NCBI GenBank assembly: GCA_964016885.1
Contig: OZ024743.1
Location: forward strand, 38,998,001 to 39,062,000
Direction: 5' to 3'
Source: Eledone cirrhosa
Taxonomy: Eukaryota
DNA length: 64,000 nt
In this document: positions 82 through 53,745 of the stretch, piece by piece
How positions within the stretch are numbered: the stretch's first letter is position 1
Layout: the number at the start of each line of letters is the position of its first letter
Program-made: the position numbers and the translations under genes
Notes under the pieces: model-generated
What the model saw: only the letters and a program-made list of their open reading frames with translations
Told to the model about the DNA's origin: nothing
Databases searched by the model: none

Positions 82-166
82 ATTTCCCTGACGATGGAAT
101 GCTTCTCTGTATCTTCTTCGGAAAAAAATATATTTATTCCATTCCAGAAACTAGTTAGTTGGAAGT
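82..166 (+). ncRNA. Type I hammerhead ribozyme motif in a TA-flanked insert
   Basis: Stem I ATTTCC(82-87)/GGAAGT(161-166); core CTGACGA(88-94); stem II TGGAATG/CATTCCA (7 bp perfect, ~38 nt loop); GAAA(147-150); stem III ACTA/TAGT; GUU site. Confidence 0.7.
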
Positions 167-329: not shown

Positions 330-1665
330 GGGATAACAAATTATCTATATAGGTAATCCCCTTAGATGTAGTCCAGTTAGAGTACTCCGAGTAGTGGATA
401 GTATTAACGCTTGTCTAAGTTTGACTCAACAAAACGTTTCCATAGTGATGCTGCGAGTACGCGGTGATGTCTATGTAGTTTACACTTGGAGAAATAATAA
501 ATTAAGAAAGAAGAGTGACATGGTTTGCTATACAATACGGGCTTTATTCACATTGTTGACAATTATTTCTCTGAAATGGTAGGTCCAGAGATCGCTACCC
601 GCCTGTTTTTGCGTCAATCGATCACCAATACTTTGTTATAACCAGTCTATTCTTCAGAGCATGCGCGAATGAAGGATATACACAGGCATGGCTACTATAT
701 ATAGTAGTGGTATTAAATCAGAACAATAATAACAATACTCAAATAAATTAGCTAGATAGTAAATAATTAAAACAATCACAACATCAATCTAAGTAAGAAA
801 TAGTGTATAATGATGACCTTAGCATGTAAAACGAACTGATACGAAACAGATGTATGAAATTGACATGTGAAAGCTGTCATGGGGTACACTAGATATAGTG
901 CAGAGGTGGCAAAGAGATAACTTGGGGCCTGGAATTATGGACTATCTGCTTTACTGAATATTTCCTGGCCGTCAGATGATGATTAATTTATTATCTGACA
1001 GATAAAATATTTTCATTGTTGTGAGGATGTTAATTTTTATGTGGTGTAAAGTGGAGTTGTAGATTCGTTATTTAAGTGGCCTATATTAGATGTAGGGATT
1101 GTTAGTTCGAATCATGGGGGTTTAGCTTTCACAGCGTCAATAATAAATCGTGCATGAATAAGACAAGAATAACAACAACAGTAGTAAAGAAAGCAAGGTA
1201 TATATAGAGAACATGATGAATACTATTACGGAGACATTGGAGTGTTCATTATAACAACAGGAGGAAAGTGATATTTCAAGGACTGTAACTTTCACATGTC
1301 AATTTCATACATCTGTATCGTATCAGTTCGTTTTACATGCTAAGGTCATCATTATACTCTATGTCTTACTTAGCTTGATGTTGTAATTGTTTTAACTATT
1401 TACTATCTAGCTAATTTATTTGAGTATTGTTATTATTGTTCTGATATAATACCACTACTATATATAGTAGCCATGCCTGTGTATATCCTTCCATCTCGAA
1501 TGCTCTGATGAATAGACTGGTTATAACAAAGTATTGGTGATCGATTGACGCAGAATCAGGCGGGTAGCGATCTCTAGACCTACGAGTTCAGAGAAACAAT
1601 TGTCAGCAATGTGAATAAAGCCCTTATTGTATAGCAAACCACGTCACTCTTCTTTCTTGATTTAT
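330..1665 (-). mobile_element. Non-coding 3' end (pLTR) of a Naiad-like PLE with an inverted duplication, inserted in (TA)n
   Basis: The reverse complement of 330-1140 matches 47270-48105, the 3' region of the PLE at 45790. 500-885 is repeated in inverted orientation at 1280-1665. Both sides are (TA)n. Confidence 0.8.
1501..1608 (+). ncRNA. HHR-like motif with long stem II insert (copies at ~553-662 minus and ~47773-47880 plus)
   Basis: TGCT-CTGATGA ... GAAACAATTGTC-AGCA: stem I TGCT/AGCA, palindromic stem III ACAATTGT, GUC site. Basal pairing of stem II is unclear. Confidence 0.5.
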
Positions 1666-3560: not shown

Positions 3561-4866
3561 CAGGGTGGGGCATAAAAACTGTTAAAAAATAAAATGCAAA
3601 TAGTTCTTGAAAAAAACATTTATTTCAAGATCTGACTTCAACAAATTGTAAGTAATATACTATTATAAACAACTGCACACAAATTTAGTCGAAATGCTTT
3701 CCTCTAACTCTCACCATCGCTGGAAGTCTTCTAGGAAAGTCTTCGATGACTGCACGAACAGTTTCCATGGGTATTTTCTCCCATACTTTATTCAGTTTTT
3801 ATTTCAGAGTTTCAATATTTTGGCTAGGAGTAGAGCAGGCTTCACTCTCAATAATTGACCATAAGGAAAAATCGAGAGAGTTGAGATCTGGTGATGTGGG
3901 AGGCCACTCTTCCCTACTGATCCATGCAGGACAATGGTCTCTACACAACTGTTGTGTTATGCAAGCAGTGTGGCTCGTCGCTCCATCTTGTTGGAGAGTC
4001 CTAATGTCATCGCCATAAACAGATATGCACCATGGCATCAGTGCTCCTTCCAAAATATCATTTATGCAAACTTCTTTGTTAATTTTAACTCCTTGAGGCA
4101 TAAAAATCAGGGGAGACTTACCTCTTTTAGAAATGGCTGCCCAAATCATCATTGATGCTGGTTTCTGTGTTCTGAACACTTTTCCTACACTTGAAGGAAT
4201 TGATTTGAGACTTTTTGCAAGTACTCGATCATTTTGATGATTGTGAGACTGCTGCACAGTGAATAAGTTCTCATCTGTAAAGATGATGTTTTGCAGCGTG
4301 CCATCCTTGATACAGTTCAATAACAGTTTAATTCTGGAGAGCCTCTTTTCAATTGTGGCTGCAGAAAGAAGCTGCCTCTTTTGGAACTTATAGGGTGACA
4401 TCCCCAGATCATCTCAACATATCCTCCGCATAGTTCTCGGCGATGTTTCTGCTTCTTCTGCCATTTTTCTCATGGACCTTCTTGGATTACGCCTTATTTT
4501 TTCCGTCACACTTCTAACGAGTTTTGGTGTTCTTGAGGTGCGGGGGCGTCTGGGTCGAGGTCTATCTTTGATCGAGGAAGTTTCCTTAAATCGATCAATT
4601 GTCCTTTTGATCAACATTCTATTGATCTTAAGAATTTCCCCCAGTTTAAATATCTCGGGTCGAGTCAGGCCTTTTTCATGCTTCTCTATTATGAACTTTC
4701 TTTTCAATTCTATGGCCATTGCAAATTGTTAATGGAGTAATGTTCTGAAAAATAGTTAATATGGTTATAGTGCATGGATTTGATACAAATATATTAGTTA
4801 TTTTAGCAACACAATGTATTTTTAAATTGATTTAAAACTTTGTAACAGGAATTATGCCCCACCCTG
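3561..4866 (-). mobile_element. Full-length Tc1/mariner superfamily transposon, DD37D (maT-type)
   Basis: TIRs CAGGGTGGGGCATAA..CTGTTA(3561-) / TAACAGGAATTATGCCCCACCCTG(-4866); TA flanks inside (TA)n; internal transposase. Confidence 0.93.
3685..4719 (-). pseudogene. DD37D transposase with two in-frame stop codons
   Basis: N-terminal HTH region (RPRPRRPRTSRT...RRNPRRSMRKMA); catalytic IFTDE, QQDGATSH, WPPTSPDLNSLD with 37 residues between D2 and D3. Stops at ~4414 and ~3799 lie in one continuous frame that ends GKHFD*. Confidence 0.9.
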
Positions 4867-8814: not shown

Positions 8815-8942
8815 CATTTTACGATCGTTTCTACGATGTATATGTGTGTTGGTATGTATATAATATAGATCTATGTAAAAATATTACACATTATCAGAGG
8901 AAATATACATACCTTTACATATACAAGCTGTCTTCAGAAATG
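8815..8942 (-). ncRNA. Type I hammerhead ribozyme motif with ~100 nt stem II
   Basis: Reverse complement: CATTT-CTGAAGA-..TGTATATGT....ACATATACA..-GAAA-CGATCGTA-AAATG. Perfect stem I, palindromic stem III ACGATCGT, GUA site. It lies in an insert with inverted arms 8790-8850 / 8945-9010. Confidence 0.68.
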
Positions 8943-9022
8943 AAGACACATATACATACTAGAAACGATCGTAACATGATGAAATTTTAATATAAAGAAC
9001 TTGTTCCTTGTTTCTATTAATT

Positions 9023-9522: not shown

Positions 9523-11730
9523 AGTATTGAAGTTTGCTTGAAGCCTTGTGGAATAATAATGTATATTTCTTTATGTCGTTTTAGAAGCCTCAACAATGCA
9601 GATGGATAAATCTCCGGGTAACAAGATCCGGTGATGGAGAGAGAGATGTAAGTGAATGTAGGTTGAGATGTGTAGTGTGTAGAAGAGTGTAGGAAAGAGC
9701 GTATAAGGATAAAAATAATAACACGAGATAGAGTTACCTTGGGAAAGATTTAATCGACCCTATATATTTCTGATTCAATCCATCAACTGGGTTTTTTCCG
9801 GGGGGGGGGCCCTTTTGTCTGTCGGAAAGCTGCGAAACGTGTCTTCCGCTGTTCGTAGCTTTGAATATCTGAGGTATTCAGCAGAGCGCGCGTGCGCGTG
9901 AAATGGGGTCAGTCATGCAGAGGTGGGTGACCGAAATAGTTCTTTCAATTGTGGGAGTGGGGCGGCGTTAGCTGTCATTCCATTGTATTATCTGCCCTTT
10001 TGAATAGTGTCTGGTTGTGATAGTATTCTCTGCCTGTTTGTGAATGTTACTCTGTGTGTGTGTGCGTGTGTTGTGTCTCGCATGAGTGTGTGTGTGCGTG
10101 TGTTGTTGCCTCGTTCGTCTGTATTAGCAGTGTAGTATGTTCGTATGGTGGAATGCTACTGTGTGTGTGTGCGTGTGTTGCTGTCTCGCTTGTGTGAGTG
10201 TGTGTGTGCGTGTGTTGCTGCACCGTTTGTTTACTTAAACGAAACACCTCATTTCGCTTCTCTCGGATCGGTTATTTATTTGTGACCCTAGGTGTTTGAT
10301 CCAAAGTGCTTCCTTGATTCGTAATGTGCCGACGTTTCTTTCTGTCGCTAGAATTGCGACAATGGGCCTTCCGTCTTTGTTTCCGCATTTGGTTAAGTGT
10401 TTCCGGAAAGACGAGGCGCTGGTGTTAATGTGCTCCTTGATCCGGATGTGTAGCGGCCGGTTTGTGCTACCTATATAGTAGTGTTTGCACTTGTTACATT
10501 CTATCTCATACACGACCTATGTGCGTAGGCAACAGTTCGTATGGCGCATCGGGCAGTTTCTGAGGGAGCACGCATCAGTTGATTTCTCTGGTTTCCTGGA
10601 GAGGCATCTTCGCAGGGATGGGCCCGAGTGGGCCAGGTGGATGTCGAGGCCCTCCCTCTGTATAGCCTTGCGGATAGCGTTGGTGGTATTCTCGCTCAGG
10701 TGTGGTATTTTAAGGAAGCACTTGCCTTGGGTGTTTCTCTGCTTCTTGTGTCTGGTGTCTCTTATTCTGTTTGTGAGTGAGGCAGGGTACCCATTCGTCT
10801 CCAACCCTTCGATAAATCGATTGGTATGAGTGACACCACTGCATCTGTTTTTGATTCGCGTGATCTCTTTCGTGATGTATCCTCTTTTAGCACGGTTGGG
10901 GAGGCCGGATTTGTAGTGGACGAAAAGTTCCCTGCAGGCTGCCTTTCGGTAGAAGTTGTAGTGGATTCCTCCCTATTCCGTGATGTTGATTCGGAGGTCG
11001 TGGAGGGCAAGCGACTCGTTGTCGCTAGTGTGTTGTTGAACGTCTCATAGATTTTGTTCGCCATGTCTTGGAAATATGTGAGGATGAGGATATCGTCCAC
11101 GTACCTTGAGATAAAGGCGACGGCGTTGGGTAGCAGGTGTTGAGTGCTTTGCGCTCGACGCTGTCCATGTATGAGATCGCTAGCACTCCCGACAAGCTTG
11201 AGCCCATGGGCAGTCCCGAGGTTTGCTGGTATGTTTGGTCAAGGGCTCCGAAGTATGTGTTGTCAATGACGATGGATAAGAATTGGTGGATGTCAGTGGT
11301 GGTGAGCCCGAAGCAGTGTATGTCGGTGGATTGGACGCGTTACATCACTATATTAACGATCGGGAGTGTCGGGACCGATGTGTAGAGAGCGACTACATCA
11401 AGGCTGAAGGCATATATGTTAGCCTTTCTGGTGTCGGGATCCATTTGATGCAGGCGCTCCAACACCTCCTCGGAGCTGTTAACGTGTCCCGGCAAGGTGT
11501 CTAAGATGGGTTTGAGTATTCTGGCTAGGAGCCATGGAATTGTGTAGAGCGGTCCTTCCACTCTCGATACAATGGGCCTTTTCTTCAGGTCGTGTCCCTG
11601 TATGAGGTGGTAGGAGGCGGGTAGTCTGGTGTTCCTCGTGAGGATGTTGTATCTCAGCTTCTTCGGAAACTTCCGCCGGCCGCAGATGTTGGTCCAGGCG
11701 GCGTTGATGTGCTCTCTATATGCGCGGGAG
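9521..11730 (-). mobile_element. 5'-truncated Penelope-like retroelement (Poseidon/Penelope-type), RT + GIY-YIG, frameshifted
   Basis: RT motifs AFSLDVVALYTSVP, GLPMGSSLSGVLAISYMD and RYVDDILIL; GIY-YIG VVYEIECNKCKHYYIGSTNRPLHIRIKEH...LRIKEALWI. GC-rich block flanked by (TA)n. Confidence 0.9.
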
Positions 11731-11732
11731 TG

Positions 11733-11795
<63 letters not shown>

Positions 11796-11910
11796 ATATT
11801 ATGTTCAGCACTCACCCGCCTTAGTTTGTGTAGTTGGTGGTCTGAGTACGGAGTTAATTATTATAAAATAACAGGAGGTTGGACTGGGGTAATTCCTTGA
11901 AAGGTTTATT

Positions 11911-11968
11911 ATACTATGAGCATTTCAATGACCAGGTTCAGTATTAATCCGGTGATATCATCAGGTAT
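11911..11968 (-). ncRNA. Type I hammerhead ribozyme motif
   Basis: Reverse complement: ATAC-CTGATGA-TATCACCGG...CTGGTCATT-GAAA-TGCTCATA-GTAT. Stem I ATAC/GTAT, stem II ACCGG/CTGGT, stem III ATG/CAT, AUA site. Confidence 0.65.
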
Positions 11969-12264
11969 TCGAAATATAACGAAGGAATATAATAGACAAA
12001 ACCCAAGGGCTGAAAATCAGACATGAGGGCGACCGAACATTTAGCAGCTTCTTCCCCGGTCAGCCGCCATCAAGTGGTGATTATTAAGCCTACTTACATC
12101 AATCTGATGAATGGGCGTAGGCTTATAGTGTACTACTACTACCACGTCAAAGAATGAGGCCAACGTTGAGGCCAGGTCACAATCAAGCTGGTCATGCGTG
12201 CTAGAAAGTGCCGCAAAAAATATCAAAGAACATATATTTAACAAATATATATATAGTAATATAT

Positions 12265-13163: not shown

Positions 13164-13527
13164 TACAATATTAAATAAATGGAAACTATATTTATAAAAC
13201 CATATTTATTTCATTATATATATTTCAGGGATAACATATTAACAATATGCTATGCCTTCCTCAGACAAAATACAATATAAACAGTTTTATAGATAAATAG
13301 ATAAATAGATTCGACATACAATTTTGTCACTACCAAATCAACCTTTTCAAACGCAAGTAGATGTTGTTACGGTATGTCGAATCTATTTATCTATTTATCT
13401 ATAAAACTGTTTATATTGTATTTTGTCTGAGGAAGGCATAGCATATTGTTAATATGTTATCCCTGAAATATATATAATGAAATAAATGTGGTTTTATAAA
13501 TATAGTTTCCATTTATTTAATATTGTA
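13164..13527. repeat. Near-perfect fold-back (arms ~156 bp, spacer ~52 bp) with one HHR per arm
   Basis: 13164-13319 is the reverse complement of 13372-13527 with about one mismatch. Confidence 0.92.
13419..13484 (+). ncRNA. Type I hammerhead ribozyme motif (identical copy at 13207-13272 minus)
   Basis: Stem I TATTTTGT/ATGAAATA; CTGAGGA; 14 bp stem II AGGCATAGCATATT/AATATGTTATCCCT; GAAA; palindromic TATATATA stem III; AUA site; AATAAA overlaps the 3' end. Confidence 0.75.
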
Positions 13528-27891: not shown

Positions 27892-27957
<66 letters not shown>

Positions 27958-28020
27958 GTAAATATATATATATATGTTTGAGGTGTATAGTTAGATGTAT
28001 GTGTATTCATGTATTAAAGT

Positions 28021-28133
<113 letters not shown>

Positions 28134-28677
28134 TAGACAGGAGTATGTATATATGTGTGTGCCTATACGTGTGTATATGAAGATAAGTTGAGTATGAAAA
28201 TGTATATACATGAATGCGTATGTATGTACATATATATATGTATATATATGTATATATATATATATATATATGTGCAGGTATATATGTATGTAAGTATGAG
28301 CATGTAAGTATGTGTATGTGAGTGTATGTATTTTGTAGAGGTGTGCATATATGGTTGTGTGTGAATGTGTGGGCGAACGGATACGTACACTTGAAAGAAA
28401 AATTTAAGTCGGTATGTTAATTAAGTGCAAACACAAAACCAACCATGCATATCTTTACTATCTCTAATCCTTCTATAGATTTAGAAAAATAACCAACGCC
28501 AAATAATGTATTCTATAAAAATGTCAAAACAACAGATGGGAATCTAATTACTCACTGCTACCAAAAATTATCACTGCTATCAAAAAAATCTCTATCCACT
28601 CCCTTAACTATTCTTCTAACAACTTCACCCCTCCCTCTTAATATTCTCTATAAAAACCAAACAGGTTCTCAATAAAA

Positions 28678-28798
28678 TTATTCTGATGAAATGAAAGTTG
28701 ATAATAACATTGAAATATTGAGTGTCTGCATAATTAATACTTTGTAGATAGCAGCTGTTTTCAGGTTATGTAACTGTTATTGAAACACGTGTCAATAA
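28678..28798 (+). ncRNA. Type I hammerhead ribozyme motif with perfect core and ~90 nt stem II
   Basis: TTATT-CTGATGA-AATGAAAGTTG....TAACTGTTATT-GAAA-CACGTGTC-AATAA. Perfect stem I, palindromic ACACGTGT stem III, GUC site at 28793, AATAAA directly after, (TA)n ~35 bp downstream. Confidence 0.78.
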
Positions 28799-28833
28799 AT
28801 TCCTTTTAACTGAACTGTATCCATTTAAATCCT

Positions 28834-28889
<56 letters not shown>

Positions 28890-28890
28890 A

Positions 28891-28999
<109 letters not shown>

Positions 29000-39597: not shown

Positions 39598-40222
39598 AAG
39601 AATGAATAATAATACGTAGACATCATAAAAAGGTAATTTAATCCGAGTGCTTACAAATGTTTCAACAGTAGTTATACAGCCTAGTCAGGTTATGTGCAAT
39701 TGATAATTAATAATTATTTGATTGCAGAAACTCAATTTTCAAATGCTGCGACTACCATTTCCTTAGAGCAGAATGGTTAAAATGTAAATATCCTTGTATT
39801 TCTTAAAAGAAGTTATTGGAGAAGATAAAACCCCTACCACAACATTTTGATTAAGCTATCAGTATTCTTCAAACCACTCTCTCCCACTTCTCCAACCCCT
39901 ACATCTCCCTCTCTCTCTCTAGCTATCTATCTATCTCTCCCTCTCTCTCTTTCTCTATCATTCTCCCCTTCTTTCTCTCTTCCTTTCTACTCAATCTTCA
40001 CCAATAACTTCCTTTAAGAAATACAAGGGTATTTACATTTTAACCATTCTGCTCTGAGGAAATGGTAGTCGCAGCATTTGAAAATTGAGTTTTTGCAATC
40101 AAATGATTATTAATTATCAATTGCACATAGCATGACTAGGCTGTATAACTACTGTTGACATATTTGTAAGCACTTTCAATAAATTACCTTTTTATGATGT
40201 CTACCTATTATTATTCATTCTT
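39598..40222. repeat. Fold-back insert (arms ~230 bp) with an HHR-like motif in each arm
   Basis: 39598-39826 is the reverse complement of 39995-40222. CTGAGGA-AATG..CATTT-GAAA at 40054-40083; the left arm has CTAAGGA. Confidence 0.88.
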
Positions 40223-45789: not shown

Positions 45790-48105
45790 AATATGAATGG
45801 AATTAAACGTAAATCTGAGAACGGGTTCCCGAGATACGGGATTTTTACGTGTACCTTCATAAATAGAGAGTTATTTTGGGCAAATATTAGTGCTCATACA
45901 AAAAATAGAGGTAACCGGACTAGACATAATACTAGGCAAGTAGCACCTAGAGTAGGAGGAACGAACACGAATAATGTAAACACCAGAAACCATAGAAGAA
46001 CAAGAGAAAGAAAATACCTTTGGTTTAATCCAATCCGCAACTCCTCTATAAGAACTAAACTGCCTTCTACGTTCTTTAAACTAATAGATAAACACTTCCC
46101 TATATCGCATAGATATCATAAAATCTTCAATAGAAAAACTATAAAACTCTCATACTCTACTGCTGCAAACATTGAATCGCACATACGCAAGATCAACCAC
46201 AAGTATACCTCTAGGATAGATATCCCTCCCATACTCAACATAGCACCAAACACAAACCACAAACGCATTAGAGTATGACAACCGCAAACGCACATGGACA
46301 CACCGCAGCAATACTTCAATAGGCATAAATCACAACCCAGATACAATAGCTTACAAAACCGCAATTTGAAAGCTGCACAGAGTAATACCCCGAACTGCAA
46401 CATCACCTACCGGATAAGTGCCTACTAACGAATAGGTGCCTTGATTCGGGCCTAGTGTACGTGTGTACTAAACACTCGGGCAACTCCACGTAGCACTACA
46501 TTGTATCCACCGCGGGTGCTTTTAAAAAAAGATGGTATGTGCACAGACATTCAATGAAGAACCATGCACTGATAAATTCTACAACCCTCGCCAATAAAAT
46601 CTGGCAACTTAAGAACAAAAACCTTGATTATAATATTAGCTGGTAGAAATTAGCGACCGCAAAGACATATAGCAGCGGTATGTCGTACTGCGGGCTCTGT
46701 AACATAGAATTGCTGCATATCTTAAGGAACGATAAAATGCTACTCAACAGCAAAATAGAAAGGTCAATTTTCTGCAGACATAGGATTGCTACAAAATTCG
46801 CGAGATTTAAACTACCGTTATTCGAACCAATACCACTTAGCTTTTAACATATGAAATCCACCTTCTCACATATCCCAATACGGCAATATAATCTTCTATA
46901 AATACCTTATAGCCTCCCTAATTCTATTCCACTGGAATATGTCTACAACTATCTTATCAGACCATAAATCAATCCTACCTTCGCTGTTACCAACTACTTC
47001 AGACCAAGGATTTATATCTCTCATTAGCATTCATGATCTCTAAAAGATGAACCTAATTATAAGTACATTATCTTATTGCCCCTACACCTCTTGAAATCTC
47101 ACTTTTCCTCTTATTATTCTTCTTCTTATTATTATTATGAACATCTCAATATAGCCCTAATATTATTCATCATGTTCTATATATCTGCCATGGACATTTT
47201 ACTACTTTATTACCTTCTATTATTGTTTTCATCACTGTTTTATTTATACACGATTTGTTATCGATGCCCTGAAAACTAAACCCCCACGATTCGAACTAAC
47301 AATCCCTACCTTTAGTATAGGCCACTTAAATAACGAATCTACAACTCTATTTAAGACCACATAAAAACTATGATCATCACTAAATTAATCAAACGAAAAT
47401 GTGTATCTGTCAAATAATAAAAGAAATAAAAAGTAAATCTCCGGTTTATTGCTAGAATACTTACAGCACAGAGGATACCTCATCAATTCTGTCTCCAAGT
47501 ACATCTTAGTGGTTACTGTTATCTAGTCGCTACCCCATTACTATATCTAATGTACCCTATAGCAGTTTTCACACGTCAATTTCATACATCTGTATCATAT
47601 CAATCTGTTTAACATGTTAGATTCTTCATTATACTCTAACTCTTTTTATATTTATGTTATTATTTTAATTGTCTGCTATCTAGTTATTTTATTTTATCAT
47701 TTATATTATTGTTCTGATTTAATACCACACTTATATAAAAACCATGCCCTATCTATTTTCTTCATTTCAGCCGCTCTGATGATATCAACTGGTTATAAAC
47801 AAATTATTGATGATCGATTGGCACATAATCAGGCGTATAGCGAACTCTAGACCTGCCATGTCAAGGAAACAAGTGTCAGATATGTGAATAAAGCTAATAT
47901 TGTATAGCGAACCATGTCAATCTTCTTTCTTTAATTATTATTACTCCAAGTATAAACTATATAGAAATCACCGCGAACTCGCAGCATCACTATGGAAACG
48001 TCTTGTTGAGTCAAACTAAGCCGCACGTTACTACTATCCACTACAAGAATAACTCCAACTGGACTACATCTAAGTGGACTGCCATAACGATAACCTGTTA
48101 TTCCG
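45790..48105 (+). mobile_element. 5'-truncated Naiad-like Penelope element (family 1): thumb/linker, GIY-YIG and long 3' region
   Basis: NGFP, RKYLWFNPIRNSSIRTKLPSTFFKLIDKHFP...TIKLSYS; endonuclease VYVC..YIVSTAGAFKKRWYVHRHSM..STTLANKIWQLK..CGLC..CRH. Confidence 0.85.
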
Positions 48106-48826: not shown

Positions 48827-51800
48827 AAAGAGAAAACACAGGTAAGCATTAAGAAAAGGATTTTATCCAGGTATTTACGACCGTTTCATTGGTAAGTGCA
48901 ACCTTATATTGCTATACGGCAAATAGCAGCCACTCAATGATAATTGTTATTCGCGTCCATATTTTCAAAATTGTGAGTAAGTTACTCTTAAAAAAGTTCT
49001 TAATATATAGAGAAAAACATTTTTTTTTAATTGTATTTACTAGTATAGAGAGAGAGGAAGAGGAATTAGAAGGTGGGGGGACAAACGGAATAGTATAGAG
49101 AGATAGGAAGGGGGAGAAGAGTTAGGAATCGAGTGACAAACTGAGATGGCGGGAGGGGTAGAGGTGGAAGGATTCCTTGATCAGTTTTGATACGTAGACT
49201 TCATGTCGGCGATTTAGATTGTAGTCAGTTAAAGAGAATTAAATTGTTTATAGTGGAAGGGAGGGAGAGAGAGAGGGAGAGGGGGCGATATAGAGAGATA
49301 AATACATATATAAAAAAGATAAAAATAAAAATAAATAAGATGGGGGGGGGGGGGGGAGAGAAAAGATAGCCAAAACGAGGAGAGAAGAAAGGAAGAAAAC
49401 GAAAAGAAATAGAAAAGGAATGAAGGAGAAGGGAGGGATATAGTTATTGGTTTTTGTGGGTAATTATAGGGGCTAGATACAATAAGAGGGTAGAAAGTCT
49501 ATGTATAAGCAGTTTGACAAGTGGTAGTAAGAGGTTAAGGGTTCGATTTGTACTTGTAGTGCGAACACTTTTCCTTGAGTCTATGGTTACAATAAATTTA
49601 TCTTTCGATTTTATTGTTGAGTAACTTATTCTTCGAACTAAAACTGTGGAACAGCTCAACGTCACATCATCGACAACTTCTTATTCCACTCCGATATGGG
49701 GGCGCGTTCGATAATTTGTTCCACTTCAGGGTGTATTGGTGGTTACTTTCCCTCAGTTGCCAGGTTTTGTTTGCAAGGGTAGTTACATAACGATGTTGGG
49801 AATGTTTCATTGCGTGACGCTGTGTATACCAACGAGCTTTAAATGTATTCCCAGTCGCTCCGATGTAATACCATTTCTGGTTGTCTGATTCTACTGTGCA
49901 TTGGTAACCTTGGTTAGGTTGCATACATTCATTATGTAATGGACATGTTTCAGGTAGGTGGCAGTTACATTTCTTGTCATTGGCAACTTTGGCATTATTG
50001 GTGGGCTGCGATGCCTGTACAAGTGTGTTAAGTTGTGTTTGCCTATTAGCGAGTGGTTGTGTATTAGATATTGTGTTGTGTTCAATGGCGATTGTATTGT
50101 TATTGTTATAAGTTTGTGTTCGGGTGTTGTTATGTATCTTTTTAGCGTTAAGCATCTTAATGTGTGCCTCTATGTTTGGTGCCGTGGAGTAAGATAGTCT
50201 AATTGATTTAGTGTTAAGGATATTTGTCTGTATCTATGTGAATCTGGAAAGTGCTTATTTATTATTCGAAAGAAGGTAGAGGGTAGGTTAGTACTAATAG
50301 AAGTGTTAAATATGCGGTTATACCAGATATATTTGCTACTGCGTAACTTGTTTGATTTCGATGTTGTATATCTATTTACAGTATAATTTGTAGTTCTATG
50401 CGTAAATGCGTGTGTGCGTGTGTTTCTGGAGTTTACGTGTTCGTGTGCGCTTTGCGGAGGCTCTCATCTATATATTCTATTCTATCTAAGTGGCCTTCTT
50501 TGTCTAGTGCGGTATTGTAGTATTCTGCATGTTCCTCGAATATTTGTCGGTTAGACGAGAGGCGGGAGATCCTAAGGGATATGCTGTGTGGAATGGATTT
50601 AATTATGGATAGTGGTGGTTTGAATTACAGTTGATGTATGCTAAGTTTTCATTATTCTTGTGAAAAGGTCTTATAATTCCCGTATTTAGGTTAAGCGTCG
50701 CGTCAAGAAAGTTAAATATTTTAGATATTTAGATATATTTTTAAAAACGTTATGCTAAGACCTAGTTTTCCGAGAGTCTTTCTAATATTCTTACGGAGTC
50801 TTTCTATGCTCCGGTTATTTAGGTTCGTAACTAGTAGAAGGGCGTCACTCTGTAAACTATGTAAATACCTACTAAATCTGTGACTTGAGCCAAATCGTTA
50901 GCCCCCATCGTGATGTCAAAGTTATTTAATCTATCATTACGTTCCCAATAGGCGTTTTCAAATTTGATTATTGTTTTCCAAGCAGCTAATATAATTTTCA
51001 TCTCGTCGTCTGTTTGGTCAGAATTGGCTTTGGCGAATGCAAAGGTTTTATCCAAGGTGTTGGGGTATATAGAGGAGTAATAGTCGTTAATGTCGAATTG
51101 TATAAACTTAGATACATTTTTGTTAGCTATATTGTTAAACCACTTATTTGTTTCGGTAGCGTTTCCCCATAGTTTAATCACTAGTTTATTCTTCATTTGT
51201 GCTATCACTCTGTCTAATATATGTTTACTAATTTTCCCAATGTCCGATTTGGACGGGTATATAAGTCTAATTGTGGGGTAATAATCAAAATTTACATTGC
51301 GGTCCTTGAGATTAAATGTGGGGGTAATTGGCCTAAGTGGCTCCGTTCTGTCGTCTATTCCTAGGTATTTGACTATATTGTGTGCCTCGTTGTTGATGTT
51401 TATCAGTGCCGCCTCGTTAGTTTTTTTGTATTTACTATGTAAGTCTTTCCGTATGAAGCTATTGTATGCATTAATATCCATCGTATACACATTTGAGGTT
51501 TTATCCGCTTTGACAATGGTAGTTCGCAGCTTTTTTAGGAATGTATTCATGTCATTCTGGAGTTTATTATTCCTCCGCATTTTGAATGTTATATTCATAA
51601 TCATCTTCAGTAAGTCCTGTTCAAAGGCATCCAGTTGAAGGTTGGTAGGTGGGTTCCTACATGATTTGAAGCCGTATGTTTCCTTGTTGTATTCCACGGT
51701 GCGACCGTTACGTCCTTTGTCATAATTGAAAGTTTTCCATCTAACCCGGCGTATAAAGTCGTTTATTCGCTGTATCATCCCGACGGTATAATCCTTTCTC

Positions 51801-53745
51801 AAAGGTATAGGAGTGTTCTTTAGGGACATACCTATGTAATGCTTTTCCATAGTAGTACCGTATGTTTAGGTGCTTGCTCGACCGATAAGGAGCCTGTATT
51901 TAGGGAAGCAGGAAAATGCTTATGTGATCCAGTTCGTGGTTAAGAAAGCCAGTTTCATGGACGGTTTCAACGTACGATTAGCGGTAACTCCACAAGTTTG
52001 TAAGAATTCCGTTCAATCTTGGAGTATAAAGTATAAAAGAGAAAATACATGTAAGCATTAAGAAAAGGATTTTATCCAGGTATTTACGACGTTTCATTGG
52101 TAAGTGCAACCTTATATTGCTATACTGCAAATAGCAGCCACTCAATAATAATTGTTTTTCACGTCCAAATTTTCAAAATAGTGATTAAGTTACTCTTTAA
52201 AACGTTCTTAATATATGGAGAAAAACATTTTTTGGGGAATTGTATTTACTAGTATAGAGAGAGAGGAAGAGGAATTAGAAAGTGGGAGGACAAACGGAAT
52301 AGTATAGAGAGAGAGGAAGAGGGAGTCGATTTAGGAAGTAGAGTGACAAACTGAGATGGAGGGAGGGGTAGAGGAGAAAGGTTTCCTTGATCAGTTTTGA
52401 TAGGTAGACTTCATCTAAAATATACATAACAAAAATATACATAACAACACCAGAAAAAGATAAGCACGCTAAAAAGATACATAACAATTCCAGAACACAA
52501 ATTTATAACAATAACAATACAATCACCATTGAACACAACACAATATCTAATATACAACCACCCGCTAATAGACAAACAAAACGTAACACACTTGTACAGG
52601 CATCGCAGCCCACCAATAAGGCCAAAGTTGCCCATGACAAGAAATGTGACTGCCACCTACTTGAAACATGTCCATTACACAATTAATGTATGCAGTCTAA
52701 CCTGGTTTATACAGGTTAGACTGCATACATTCACTATGTAATGAATCAGAAAACCAGAAATGGTATTACATCGGAGCGACTGGGAATACATTTAAAGCCC
52801 GTTGTTATACACAGCGTTACGCAATGAATAATTCCCAACATCGTTATGTAACTACACTTGCAAAAAGGACCTGGCAACTGAGGTAAAGTAACCACCAATA
52901 CACCCTGAAGTGGAAAAAATTATCGAACGCGCCCCCATATCGGAGTGGAATGAGAAGCTGCGATTATGTGACCTTTTTAGTTCGAAGAATAAGTTACTCA
53001 ACAATAAAATCGAAAGATAAATTTATTGTAACCATAGACTCAAGGAAAAGTGTTCGCACTACAAGTACAAATCGAACCCTTAACCTCTTACTACCACTTG
53101 TCAAACTGCTTATACATAGACTTTCTACCCTCTTATTGTATCTAGCCCCTTTAATTACCCACAAAAACCAATAACTATATCCCTCCCTTCTCCTTCATTC
53201 CTTTTCTATTTCTTTTCGTTTTCTTCCTTTCTTCTCTCCTCGTTTTGGCTATCTTTTCTCTTCTTCTTTCACCCCCGTTATTTTTTTTTTTTTTTATAAT
53301 TATATTTATCTCTCTATACCCTGCTATCCCTCTCTCTCTCCATCCATCCCACTATAAACGATTTAATTCTCTTTAATTGACTACAATCTAAATCGCCGAC
53401 ATGAAGTCTACGTATCAAAACTGATCAAGGAATCCTTCCACCTCTACCCCTCCCGCCATCTCATTTTGTCACTCTACTTCCTAATTCTTCTCAGCCTTCC
53501 TATCTCTCTATACTATTCCGTTTGTCCCCCACTTTCTAATTCCTCTTCCTCTCTCTCTATACTAGTAAATACCTGGATAAAATCCTTTTCTTAATGCTTA
53601 CTTGTGTTTTCTCTTTTATACTTTATACTCCAAGATTGAACGGAATTCTAACAAACTTGTGGAGTTACCCCTAACCGTACGTTGAAACCGTCCATGAAAC
53701 TGGCTCTGTTAATCACGAAATGGATCACAATAAGCATTTCCTGCT
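48826..53745 (-). mobile_element. Near full-length Naiad-like Penelope element (family 2) with upstream direct pLTR and an inverted 3' copy
   Basis: Coding remnants at 49630-51850. 48826-49205 is repeated directly at 52035-52413. 52415-53745 is an inverted copy of the endonuclease and 3' region. (TA)n on both sides. Confidence 0.9.
49630..51850 (-). pseudogene. PLE polyprotein (RT + GIY-YIG), disrupted
   Basis: MSLKNTPIP..FIRRVRWK..ETYGFKS, VKADKTSNVY, IRLIYPSKSDIGKISKHILD, FIQFDINDYYSSI, FDITMGANDLAQVTDLVG; downstream YIWYN, CNCHLPETCPLHNEC and YYIGATGNTFKARW. Confidence 0.88.

What the first reader, a model, noticed from the sequence alone, without database searches (positions are those of the whole stretch)
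28678..28798. Perfect-core HHR with a ~90 nt structured stem II insert
Seen: all core nucleotides are intact, with stem I TTATT/AATAA, palindromic stem III ACACGTGT and a GUC site. Stem II is a long imperfect hairpin (AATGAAAGTTG/TAACTGTTATT, inner GTCTGCA/TGTAGAT). Typical PLE HHRs are described as minimal with short stem II. Inference: long-stem-II HHRs are a structural class that standard descriptors would miss, and the insert could carry a second function such as RT recognition.
Basis: partly seen in the sequence, partly recalled or inferred. Interest (0 to 1): 0.75.

Follow-up and report, generated by a model that had tools for sequence, protein, structure and literature searches.

The report
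Long-armed hammerhead of a Hydra retrotransposon
This is the end of a truncated copy of a Penelope-type jumping gene; it carries a hammerhead motif (a predicted self-cutting RNA) whose second arm is 92 bases long instead of the 10-31 seen in relatives elsewhere, an arm whose pairing is kept in sister families and that likely serves as a docking site for the element's own protein.

Summary
The motif is real: intact core, 92-nt insert, predicted cut after C28793; Rfam misses it. It lies at the 3' end of a 5'-truncated Hydra-clade Penelope-like element (about 27948-28834, in (TA)n); 2,752 places in this genome match the intact core with this spacing (control 3). Family-typical inserts fold as one rod (z -3.6, -5.3); this copy has a rare mismatch (z -1.9). 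Sister families carry homologous 74-96-nt arms; 9 of 23 pairs change on both sides across three families, and UUGAGU/AUAGCA stays near-invariant in four. In Hydra loci from other organisms the region is 10-31 nt (51 distinct hammerheads, in 59 of 90 loci). Cleavage is unproven: predicted dimer-only and weak, this copy has no partner, and none of 127 3' ends or 44 5' ends maps to the cut. Best reading: a selected stem II extension, likely a protein-docking arm (inferred). An intron inside the ribozyme is unlikely but not excluded. The scan reported this long-arm class before, on other DNA of this genome and in other genomes (unchecked notes). New variant of a known kind.

The parts
27948..28834 (+). 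5'-truncated Hydra-clade Penelope-like element: 3' UTR and pLTR end only, no ORF; both ends lie in (TA)n, so they are approximate
   Evidence: aligns to the 3' UTR of ORF-bearing copies L033/L034; ends at the family's first 3' end
28678..28682 (+). stem I 5' arm (UUAUU)
   Evidence: two pairs change on both sides in sister families
28683..28689 (+). catalytic core CUGAUGA
   Evidence: canonical in 60 of 70 similarity-selected copies, C4 variant in 6
28690..28698 (+). basal stem II, 5' strand (pairs with 28773-28781); rare mismatch A28695-G28776 in this copy
   Evidence: 5 of 9 pairs change on both sides across families 1, E, F
28704..28708 (+). extension helix IIb, 5' strand AUAAC (pairs with GUUAU 28765-28769)
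   Evidence: 2 of 5 pairs change on both sides (ACAGC/GCUGU in E)
28718..28723 (+). conserved loop motif, 5' side UUGAGU
   Evidence: TTGA.T invariant in four families; fifth letter varies within family 1
28724..28749 (+). apical hairpin GUCUGCA/UGUAGAU with variable 12-nt loop
   Evidence: loop length and sequence differ between families
28748..28753 (+). conserved loop motif, 3' side AUAGCA
   Evidence: invariant in the eight rows of four families aligned; an 88-nt subfamily has AUAGCU
28773..28781 (+). basal stem II, 3' strand
28782..28793 (+). GAA, palindromic stem III ACACGUGU and C17; predicted cut after 28793
   Evidence: 8-bp intermolecular helix in the dimer model
28794..28799 (+). 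stem I 3' arm, overlapping an AATAAA hexamer
   Evidence: sequence; use as poly(A) signal not tested
28697..28764 (+). GT...AG stretch of 68 nt, tested as an intron and judged unlikely

Best explanation
This is the type I hammerhead motif in the pseudo-LTR of a Hydra-clade Penelope-like retrotransposon, with stem II extended into a conserved 92-nt rod that likely serves as a docking site for the element's own RT-endonuclease protein, which would help a pair of these weak ribozymes fold and cut. Shown: membership of the element, copy number, the rod and its compensatory changes, the conserved loop letters, the insertion ends. Predicted: the basal 8-9 bp act as the working stem II; stem III forms only between two copies (upstream and downstream pLTR of a tandem transcript); stem I (five A-U pairs) is too weak to form unaided. 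Inferred: protein binding at the UUGAGU/AUAGCA loop, by analogy with the protein-assisted hammerhead of the anole element PAc. The copies that get inserted come from uncut RNA, so cutting is not a step of insertion; it would act on surplus or spent transcripts. This particular copy is a partnerless remnant with a mismatch in stem II and is likely silent. My odds: about 0.95 for the identity, 0.85 that the arm is a selected RNA structure, 0.45 for protein docking as the reason.
For: Full-length relatives: pLTR with this motif 210 nt (from C17) upstream of the ATG and a 773-aa ORF with RWK, DKT, YRDD, CxCX5C, CxxC, CxH, the Hydra diagnostics of Craig 2021. Rod: z -3.6 and -5.3, sense-specific in family 1 (antisense z -0.65, -0.28). 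Covariation: 9 of 23 pairs, 97% of cells paired against 27-49% when slid. Insert more alike than its flanks between family 1 and E or F (z 6.0, 6.4 against at most 1.6). Family G, found by the covariance model, keeps the loop letters and has the compensated U3-A8 core. Monomer active fold about 1e-5 (this copy) to 1e-4 of the ensemble; active dimer 4-6 kcal/mol above the best dimer. PAc hammerhead cuts only with protein and is dispensable for insertion (PMC11167929). 125 of 127 3' ends at +41..+52 or +157..+164, none at the cut; none of 44 ORF-linked 5' ends between -18 and +7.
Against: No binding or cleavage data at all. Covariation rests on three lineages; the count of doubly changed pairs is not above the shuffle control (73 of 500). 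The arms of E and F do not fold better than shuffles (z about -1) and E folds better antisense (z -3.1). Similarity to G is weak (z 2.4, 10 of 300 shuffles), and between G and E or F the downstream flank is more conserved than the insert. Other long-arm families (48-54, 61-62, 99-101 nt) lack the loop motif, so length can grow without it. Hydra elements elsewhere work with 10-31 nt. In PAc a template starting 20 nt into the ORF, which lacks most of stem II, still inserted. The most common subfamily listed has an A-A mismatch at the base of stem II, and another has C4.
Confidence: 0.5

Rival explanations
1. Tolerated growth: loop 2 points away from the core, so fold-back duplications by the element's RT lengthened stem II, and selection only keeps it paired so that it does not misfold the ribozyme; there is no second function.
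For: Stem II regions in this genome form a continuum from 11 to 101 nt in unrelated sequences; the element makes inverted duplications constantly; short-armed Hydra elements are the rule elsewhere; apical loop length is free.
Against: Letters predicted to be unpaired or weakly paired (UUGA.U, AUAGCA, AGG.U) are invariant across four families whose basal stems and upstream flanks have diverged; only 2 short-arm derivatives of this family match genome-wide against 2,752 long ones, though these need not be active.
Confidence: 0.27
2. The conserved letters are DNA elements of the internal pLTR promoter, laid over the ribozyme, and the rod is how stem II accommodates them.
For: D. virilis Penelope has an internal promoter in the pLTR next to its hammerhead (PMC2377424; PMC4209133); 5 of 44 ORF-linked copies begin 107-126 nt upstream of C17, just before the motif.
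Against: The 5' ends are widely scattered and the cluster is weak; no promoter data; compensatory pairing is an RNA-level signal.
Confidence: 0.1
3. The insert is a 68-nt spliceosomal intron inside stem II; splicing would give a compact 24-nt stem II and switch the ribozyme.
For: GT and AG are invariant at homologous places in four families; removal leaves a 22-24-nt stem-loop in each; the commonest subfamily has GTAAAT and TTTTAG; PLEs have 5' UTR introns, one touching the D. virilis hammerhead.
Against: Donors match 2-6 of 9 consensus positions (F: GT only) and there are only 6-8 pyrimidines in 15 before the AG; helix IIb pairs 'intron' with 'exon' and covaries; removal does not raise the predicted active fraction; no precise-loss copy among the 2 short matches, though PLEs keep introns.
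Confidence: 0.08
4. The hammerhead is vestigial in this family and the arm is what is left of a decaying pLTR.
For: No insertion end at the cut site; A-A at 10.1-11.1 and C4 variants have amplified.
Against: Core kept in families 1, D, E, F and compensated (U3-A8) in G; stem I covaries; mismatches at 10.1-11.1 are common in Hydra hammerheads elsewhere.
Confidence: 0.05

Closest known systems
Hammerheads of Hydra-clade Penelope-like elements (Craig et al. 2021, PMC8557442; read: passages, section 11, supplement parts 1, 2, 52, 53)
   Same: Type I, in the pLTR, palindromic stem III, variable pair at the base of stem II, (TA)n targets, same ORF motifs.
   Different: File S2 lists loop 2 of 3-10 nt for Hydra elements; here the stem II region is 92 nt with internal loops and a covarying second helix.
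Minimal and palindromic-helix-III hammerheads of metazoan PLEs (Cervera and De la Pena 2014, PMC4209133; read: parts 1-2 of 4)
   Same: Dimer-dependent architecture, short helix I, low predicted activity; U3-A8 core variant as in sister family G.
   Different: Helix II there is 6-8 bp with a G10.1-C11.1 pair; here A-U or A-A and a long rod.
Spike-moss PLE-X1_sMoe hammerhead (PMC8557442 File S2)
   Same: Long stem II region (9 bp + 35-nt loop + 9 bp), flagged there as deviating.
   Different: 53 nt, a plant endonuclease-less element; no conserved arm described.
PAc (Poseidon) hammerhead of Anolis (Frangieh et al. 2024, PMC11167929; read: parts 1-2 of 4)
   Same: Two RT start sites giving two insertion ends; uncut RNA is the template; ribozyme needs the protein.
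   Different: Other clade; ORF starts inside stem II there, 210 nt after C17 here; the tail between the two ends is about 118 nt here against the usual 30-40.

Membership tests
Hydra-clade PLE | Single ORF with RT and C-terminal GIY-YIG-type endonuclease | tested here: met
   773-aa ORF in L060; 299 homologues at E<=1e-20, most full length. Pfam itself gives no hit; domains are read from motifs.
Hydra-clade PLE | RWK motif, DKT in place of DKG | tested here: met
   RRVRWK and KADKTS in P0001 (criteria)
Hydra-clade PLE | CxCX5C linker, CxxC and CxH, no CCHH | tested here: met
   CNCTYPDNC, CKLC, CRH; no cysteine pair inside IIY..YVG apart from one C
Hydra-clade PLE | Insertion in (TA)n; tandem pLTR, inverted 5'-truncated copies, tail | tested here: met
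Hydra-clade PLE | Placement in the Hydra clade of an RT tree | not tested
   no tree with named references was built
Type I hammerhead ribozyme | Core CUGANGA, GAAA, UH | tested here: met
   60 of 70 copies
Type I hammerhead ribozyme | Three helices around the core, stem I open | tested here: met
   stems I and II covary; stem III invariant there, palindromic, complete only in a dimer
Type I hammerhead ribozyme | G10.1-C11.1 closing pair | tested here: not met
   A-U here, A-A in the commonest subfamily; departures are frequent in Hydra hammerheads, so this is typical, not defining, for that group
Type I hammerhead ribozyme | Loop 1-loop 2 tertiary contact | tested here: inconclusive
   first internal loop is 8-9 bp from the core; no partner in stem I identified
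Type I hammerhead ribozyme | Self-cleavage 3' of N17 | not testable with these tools
   insertion ends give no trace of a cut, which is also so for PAc
Rfam hammerhead families | Match to a covariance model | tested here: not met
   none at gathering score in the window, none at E<=10 in 28500-28900
Spliceosomal intron (PLE 5' UTR type) | Usable donor, pyrimidine tract and acceptor kept in relatives | tested here: not met
   donors 2-6 of 9, weak tracts
Spliceosomal intron (PLE 5' UTR type) | Spliced reads | not testable with these tools
   no RNA holder listed
Non-LTR retrozyme | Short head-to-tail tandem repeats, each with a hammerhead, no ORF | tested here: not met
   no such array at the locus; linked to an ORF in other copies

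The most novel reading that the evidence does not exclude
A protein-gated ribozyme: in one lineage of Hydra retrotransposons stem II has become an aptamer arm whose conserved internal loop binds the element's RT-endonuclease, so that the hammerhead pair cuts only protein-loaded tandem transcripts. It would be a natural allosteric hammerhead and a handle on the open question of what PLE hammerheads are for.
Probability: 0.25. Interest if true: 0.75.

Novelty: new variant of a known kind. Interest (0 to 1): 0.5.

Why it matters
The role of hammerheads in Penelope-like elements is unresolved: they are nearly universal, weak in vitro and dispensable for insertion in the one system tested. A family with thousands of young copies, an intact ORF and a large, covarying arm on stem II gives separable parts (core, arm pairing, loop letters) to mutate. 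It also shows a blind spot: about a third of the hammerheads found in an even sample of this genome (11 of 35) have stem II regions of 40 nt or more, beyond the spacer limits used in the published PLE search; Rfam finds none in this window. The locus itself is an ordinary remnant.

Tried and rejected
DNA transposon TIR (copies come in inverted pairs): rejected, the pairs flank RT-EN ORF pieces. Intron: my first test on family E used a non-homologous GT and seemed to destroy stem II; redone at the homologous GT it leaves a stem, so the case against rests on weak splice signals and helix IIb covariation, not on that test; my notebook entry 3 still carries the earlier, wrong argument. Expression: no RNA holder listed; three contig runs of unrecorded kind from one sample showed no joints; neither is evidence. 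Viral contigs hold no relative. The covariance model found no long-arm relative in 90 outside loci. Family D (81-85 nt) shares some letters but pairs differently and scores only 21-32 bits; homology left open. No host exon was found among 97 window ORFs of 75 aa or more scanned, so orientation to a host gene is unknown. Lunse et al. 2017 could not be read; I saw it only as cited in a review, and it may list long-stem variants. Paper searches showed no description of 70-100-nt stem II arms in PLE hammerheads in the passages I read; most subscription papers and bioRxiv supplements were not searchable. No RT tree was built.

Full report
Observation. The motif is at the stated place: stem I 28678-28682/28794-28798, core 28683-28689, a 92-nt insert, and GAAAC-ACGT-GUC ending at C28793. 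Rfam finds nothing in the window at gathering score and no hammerhead family even at E<=10 around the motif. The 121-mer of this copy folds no better than shuffles (z -0.35) and not as a hammerhead.

What it belongs to. The stretch 28400-28830 has 1,369 candidate matches in the 3.0-Gb animal genome G000; the 40 scored are 96-100% identical. The repeat runs from about 27948 to 28834 between (TA)n tracts. Other copies continue upstream into an ORF, and some have the same motif upstream of an ATG. One natural copy, L060, holds an open 773-aa frame with RWK, DKT, YRDD, CxCX5C, CxxC and CxH, the diagnostics of the Hydra clade of Penelope-like elements (PMC8557442 section 11). The window copy is a 5'-truncated 3' end without ORF. 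A pattern for the intact core with 78-106 nt spacing matches 2,752 places (control 3); with 8-38 nt spacing 5 places, of which 2 are deletion derivatives of this family. Among 70 copies chosen by similarity, not by core (a locus fetched twice may be counted twice), 60 have the canonical core and 6 a C4 variant.

The arm. The insert alone folds as one rod: z -1.9 in this copy, -3.6 in L042, -5.3 in the commonest subfamily listed; the antisense strand does not (z -0.65, -0.28). This copy is weaker because of A28695 opposite G28776, seen in 2 of 30 loci. Three sister families have homologous arms: E (85 nt, 1,850 candidates), F (96 nt, 2,212) and G (74 nt, 1,520); RT pieces linked to E and G are 55% and 62% identical to family 1. 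On 15 rows of families 1, E and F, 9 of 23 pairs change on both sides (2 in stem I, 5 in basal stem II, 2 in the next helix) and 97% of cells pair, against 27-49% when partners are slid; the rows represent only three lineages and the count of such pairs is not above the shuffle control (73 of 500). RNAalifold recovers the same two stem II helices unprompted. G was found by a model built on the other three (31 bits, E 0.0007), has the U3-A8 core in its consensus of 38 copies, and shares TTGA.T, ATAGCA and AGG.T. The insert is more alike than either 90-nt flank between family 1 and E or F (z 6.0, 6.4 against at most 1.6), weakly so for G (z 2.4). Against: E and F arms are not unusually stable (z about -1), E folds better antisense, and between G and E or F the downstream flank is the better conserved part.

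How unusual. In 80 evenly spaced 10-kb pieces my descriptor found 35 hammerheads (0 in five shuffles); 11 have a stem II region of 40 nt or more, up to 101 nt. In 90 Hydra-type loci from other organisms, fetched with a protein alignment, 59 gave a hammerhead (best hit per locus kept; 31 gave none), 51 distinct, all 10-31 nt. The published Hydra list has loops of 3-10 nt; the longest PLE case there is 53 nt in a spike moss. Long arms are thus a feature of this genome's lineage, in several unrelated sequences, of which only 1, E, F and G share the loop motif.

Does it cut? Nearest-neighbour folding puts the monomeric active fold at about 1e-5 of the ensemble for this copy and 1e-4 for typical ones. 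Two copies pair through the palindrome into an 8-bp stem III; the active dimer lies 4 kcal/mol (typical) to 6 kcal/mol (this copy) above the best dimer because stem I has five A-U pairs. No second family-1 motif lies in the window. Of 127 mapped 3' ends, 71 are at +41..+52 and 54 at +157..+164 from C17, none at the cut; of 44 ORF-linked 5' ends 27 start upstream of the cut and none lies between -18 and +7. Inserted copies therefore come from uncut RNA. This matches the anole element PAc, where reverse transcription starts at two internal sites, unprocessed RNA is the template and the hammerhead cuts only when the protein is added (PMC11167929).

Intron test. GT and AG sit at homologous places in all four families, and removing the stretch leaves a 22-24-nt stem-loop, attractive because D. 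virilis Penelope has an intron touching its hammerhead. But donors match only 2-6 of 9 consensus positions, tracts are weak, helix IIb pairs across the would-be junction with compensatory changes, and removal does not change the predicted active fraction. No RNA data were available. I leave it at 0.08.

Mechanism. Shown: a Hydra-clade pLTR hammerhead motif with a selected, extended stem II. Predicted: dimer-only, weak cleavage after C17. Inferred: the conserved loop binds the element's protein, which PAc suggests is needed for cutting; no result here tests binding, and tolerated growth of loop 2 is a serious rival.

Papers: PMC4209133 and PMC11167929, parts 1-2 of 4; PMC8557442, passages, section 11 and four supplement parts; bioRxiv 2026.07.22.740005, part 1 of 5; PMC3846280, PMC3088659, PMC6765202, PMC7229834, PMC2377424, passages; Lunse et al. 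2017, not seen. Hammerhead numbering and the splice consensus MAG|GTRAGT are from my own knowledge.

Verdict. Observation confirmed, interpretation partly supported. New variant of a known kind; interest 0.5.

Noticed in passing
window 39646-39772 (-) and 40048-40174 (+): Inverted pair of family F hammerheads (96-nt arm); each arm has a different core lesion.
   Followed up: yes
window 48870-48974 (-) and 52079-52182 (-): Family G hammerheads with U3-A8 core and 74-nt arm, around Hydra-type RT/EN pieces at 49553-51865.
   Followed up: yes
window 1499-1610 (+), 516-686 (-), 47776-47880 (+): Family D hammerheads, 81-85-nt arm, 2,490 candidates; consensus z -2.7; homology to family 1 unclear.
   Followed up: partly
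window about 8820-8943 (-): Hammerhead with a 99-nt arm, very stable (z about -6.6 against pair shuffles); a 101-nt relative in L272; lacks the loop motif.
   Followed up: partly
window 82-166 (+), 13209-13482, 11909-11970 (-): Further hammerhead-like motifs: 52-nt arm; an inverted pair with 31 nt; a weak model hit.
   Followed up: no
L042 703-820; family-wide: Two sharp 3' ends about 118 nt apart, a much longer tail than the usual 30-40 bp; CTCC-containing small hairpins appear to follow each end (seen by eye).
   Followed up: partly
L137-L166: A second, very abundant Hydra family (56,712 protein candidates) with a 35-38-nt stem II and mostly a C4 core.
   Followed up: partly
L100 (G000:C4:272382127-272382172): Single family-1 copy whose arm is lost between short direct repeats, leaving a 10-bp stem II: a natural short-arm control.
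   Followed up: partly
window 3802-4728 (-) and 10238-11798 (-): Tc1/mariner-like pieces (HTH_32, DDE_3) and a separate RT plus GIY-YIG remnant.
   Followed up: no
L411-L423: Hydra-type PLEs with hammerheads inside bacterial MAG records, likely host contamination; L418 sits near the end of a 491-kb contig.
   Followed up: no
L038 7140-7652 (-): Open frame that reads like a G-protein-coupled receptor exon next to a family-1 insertion (by eye).
   Followed up: no
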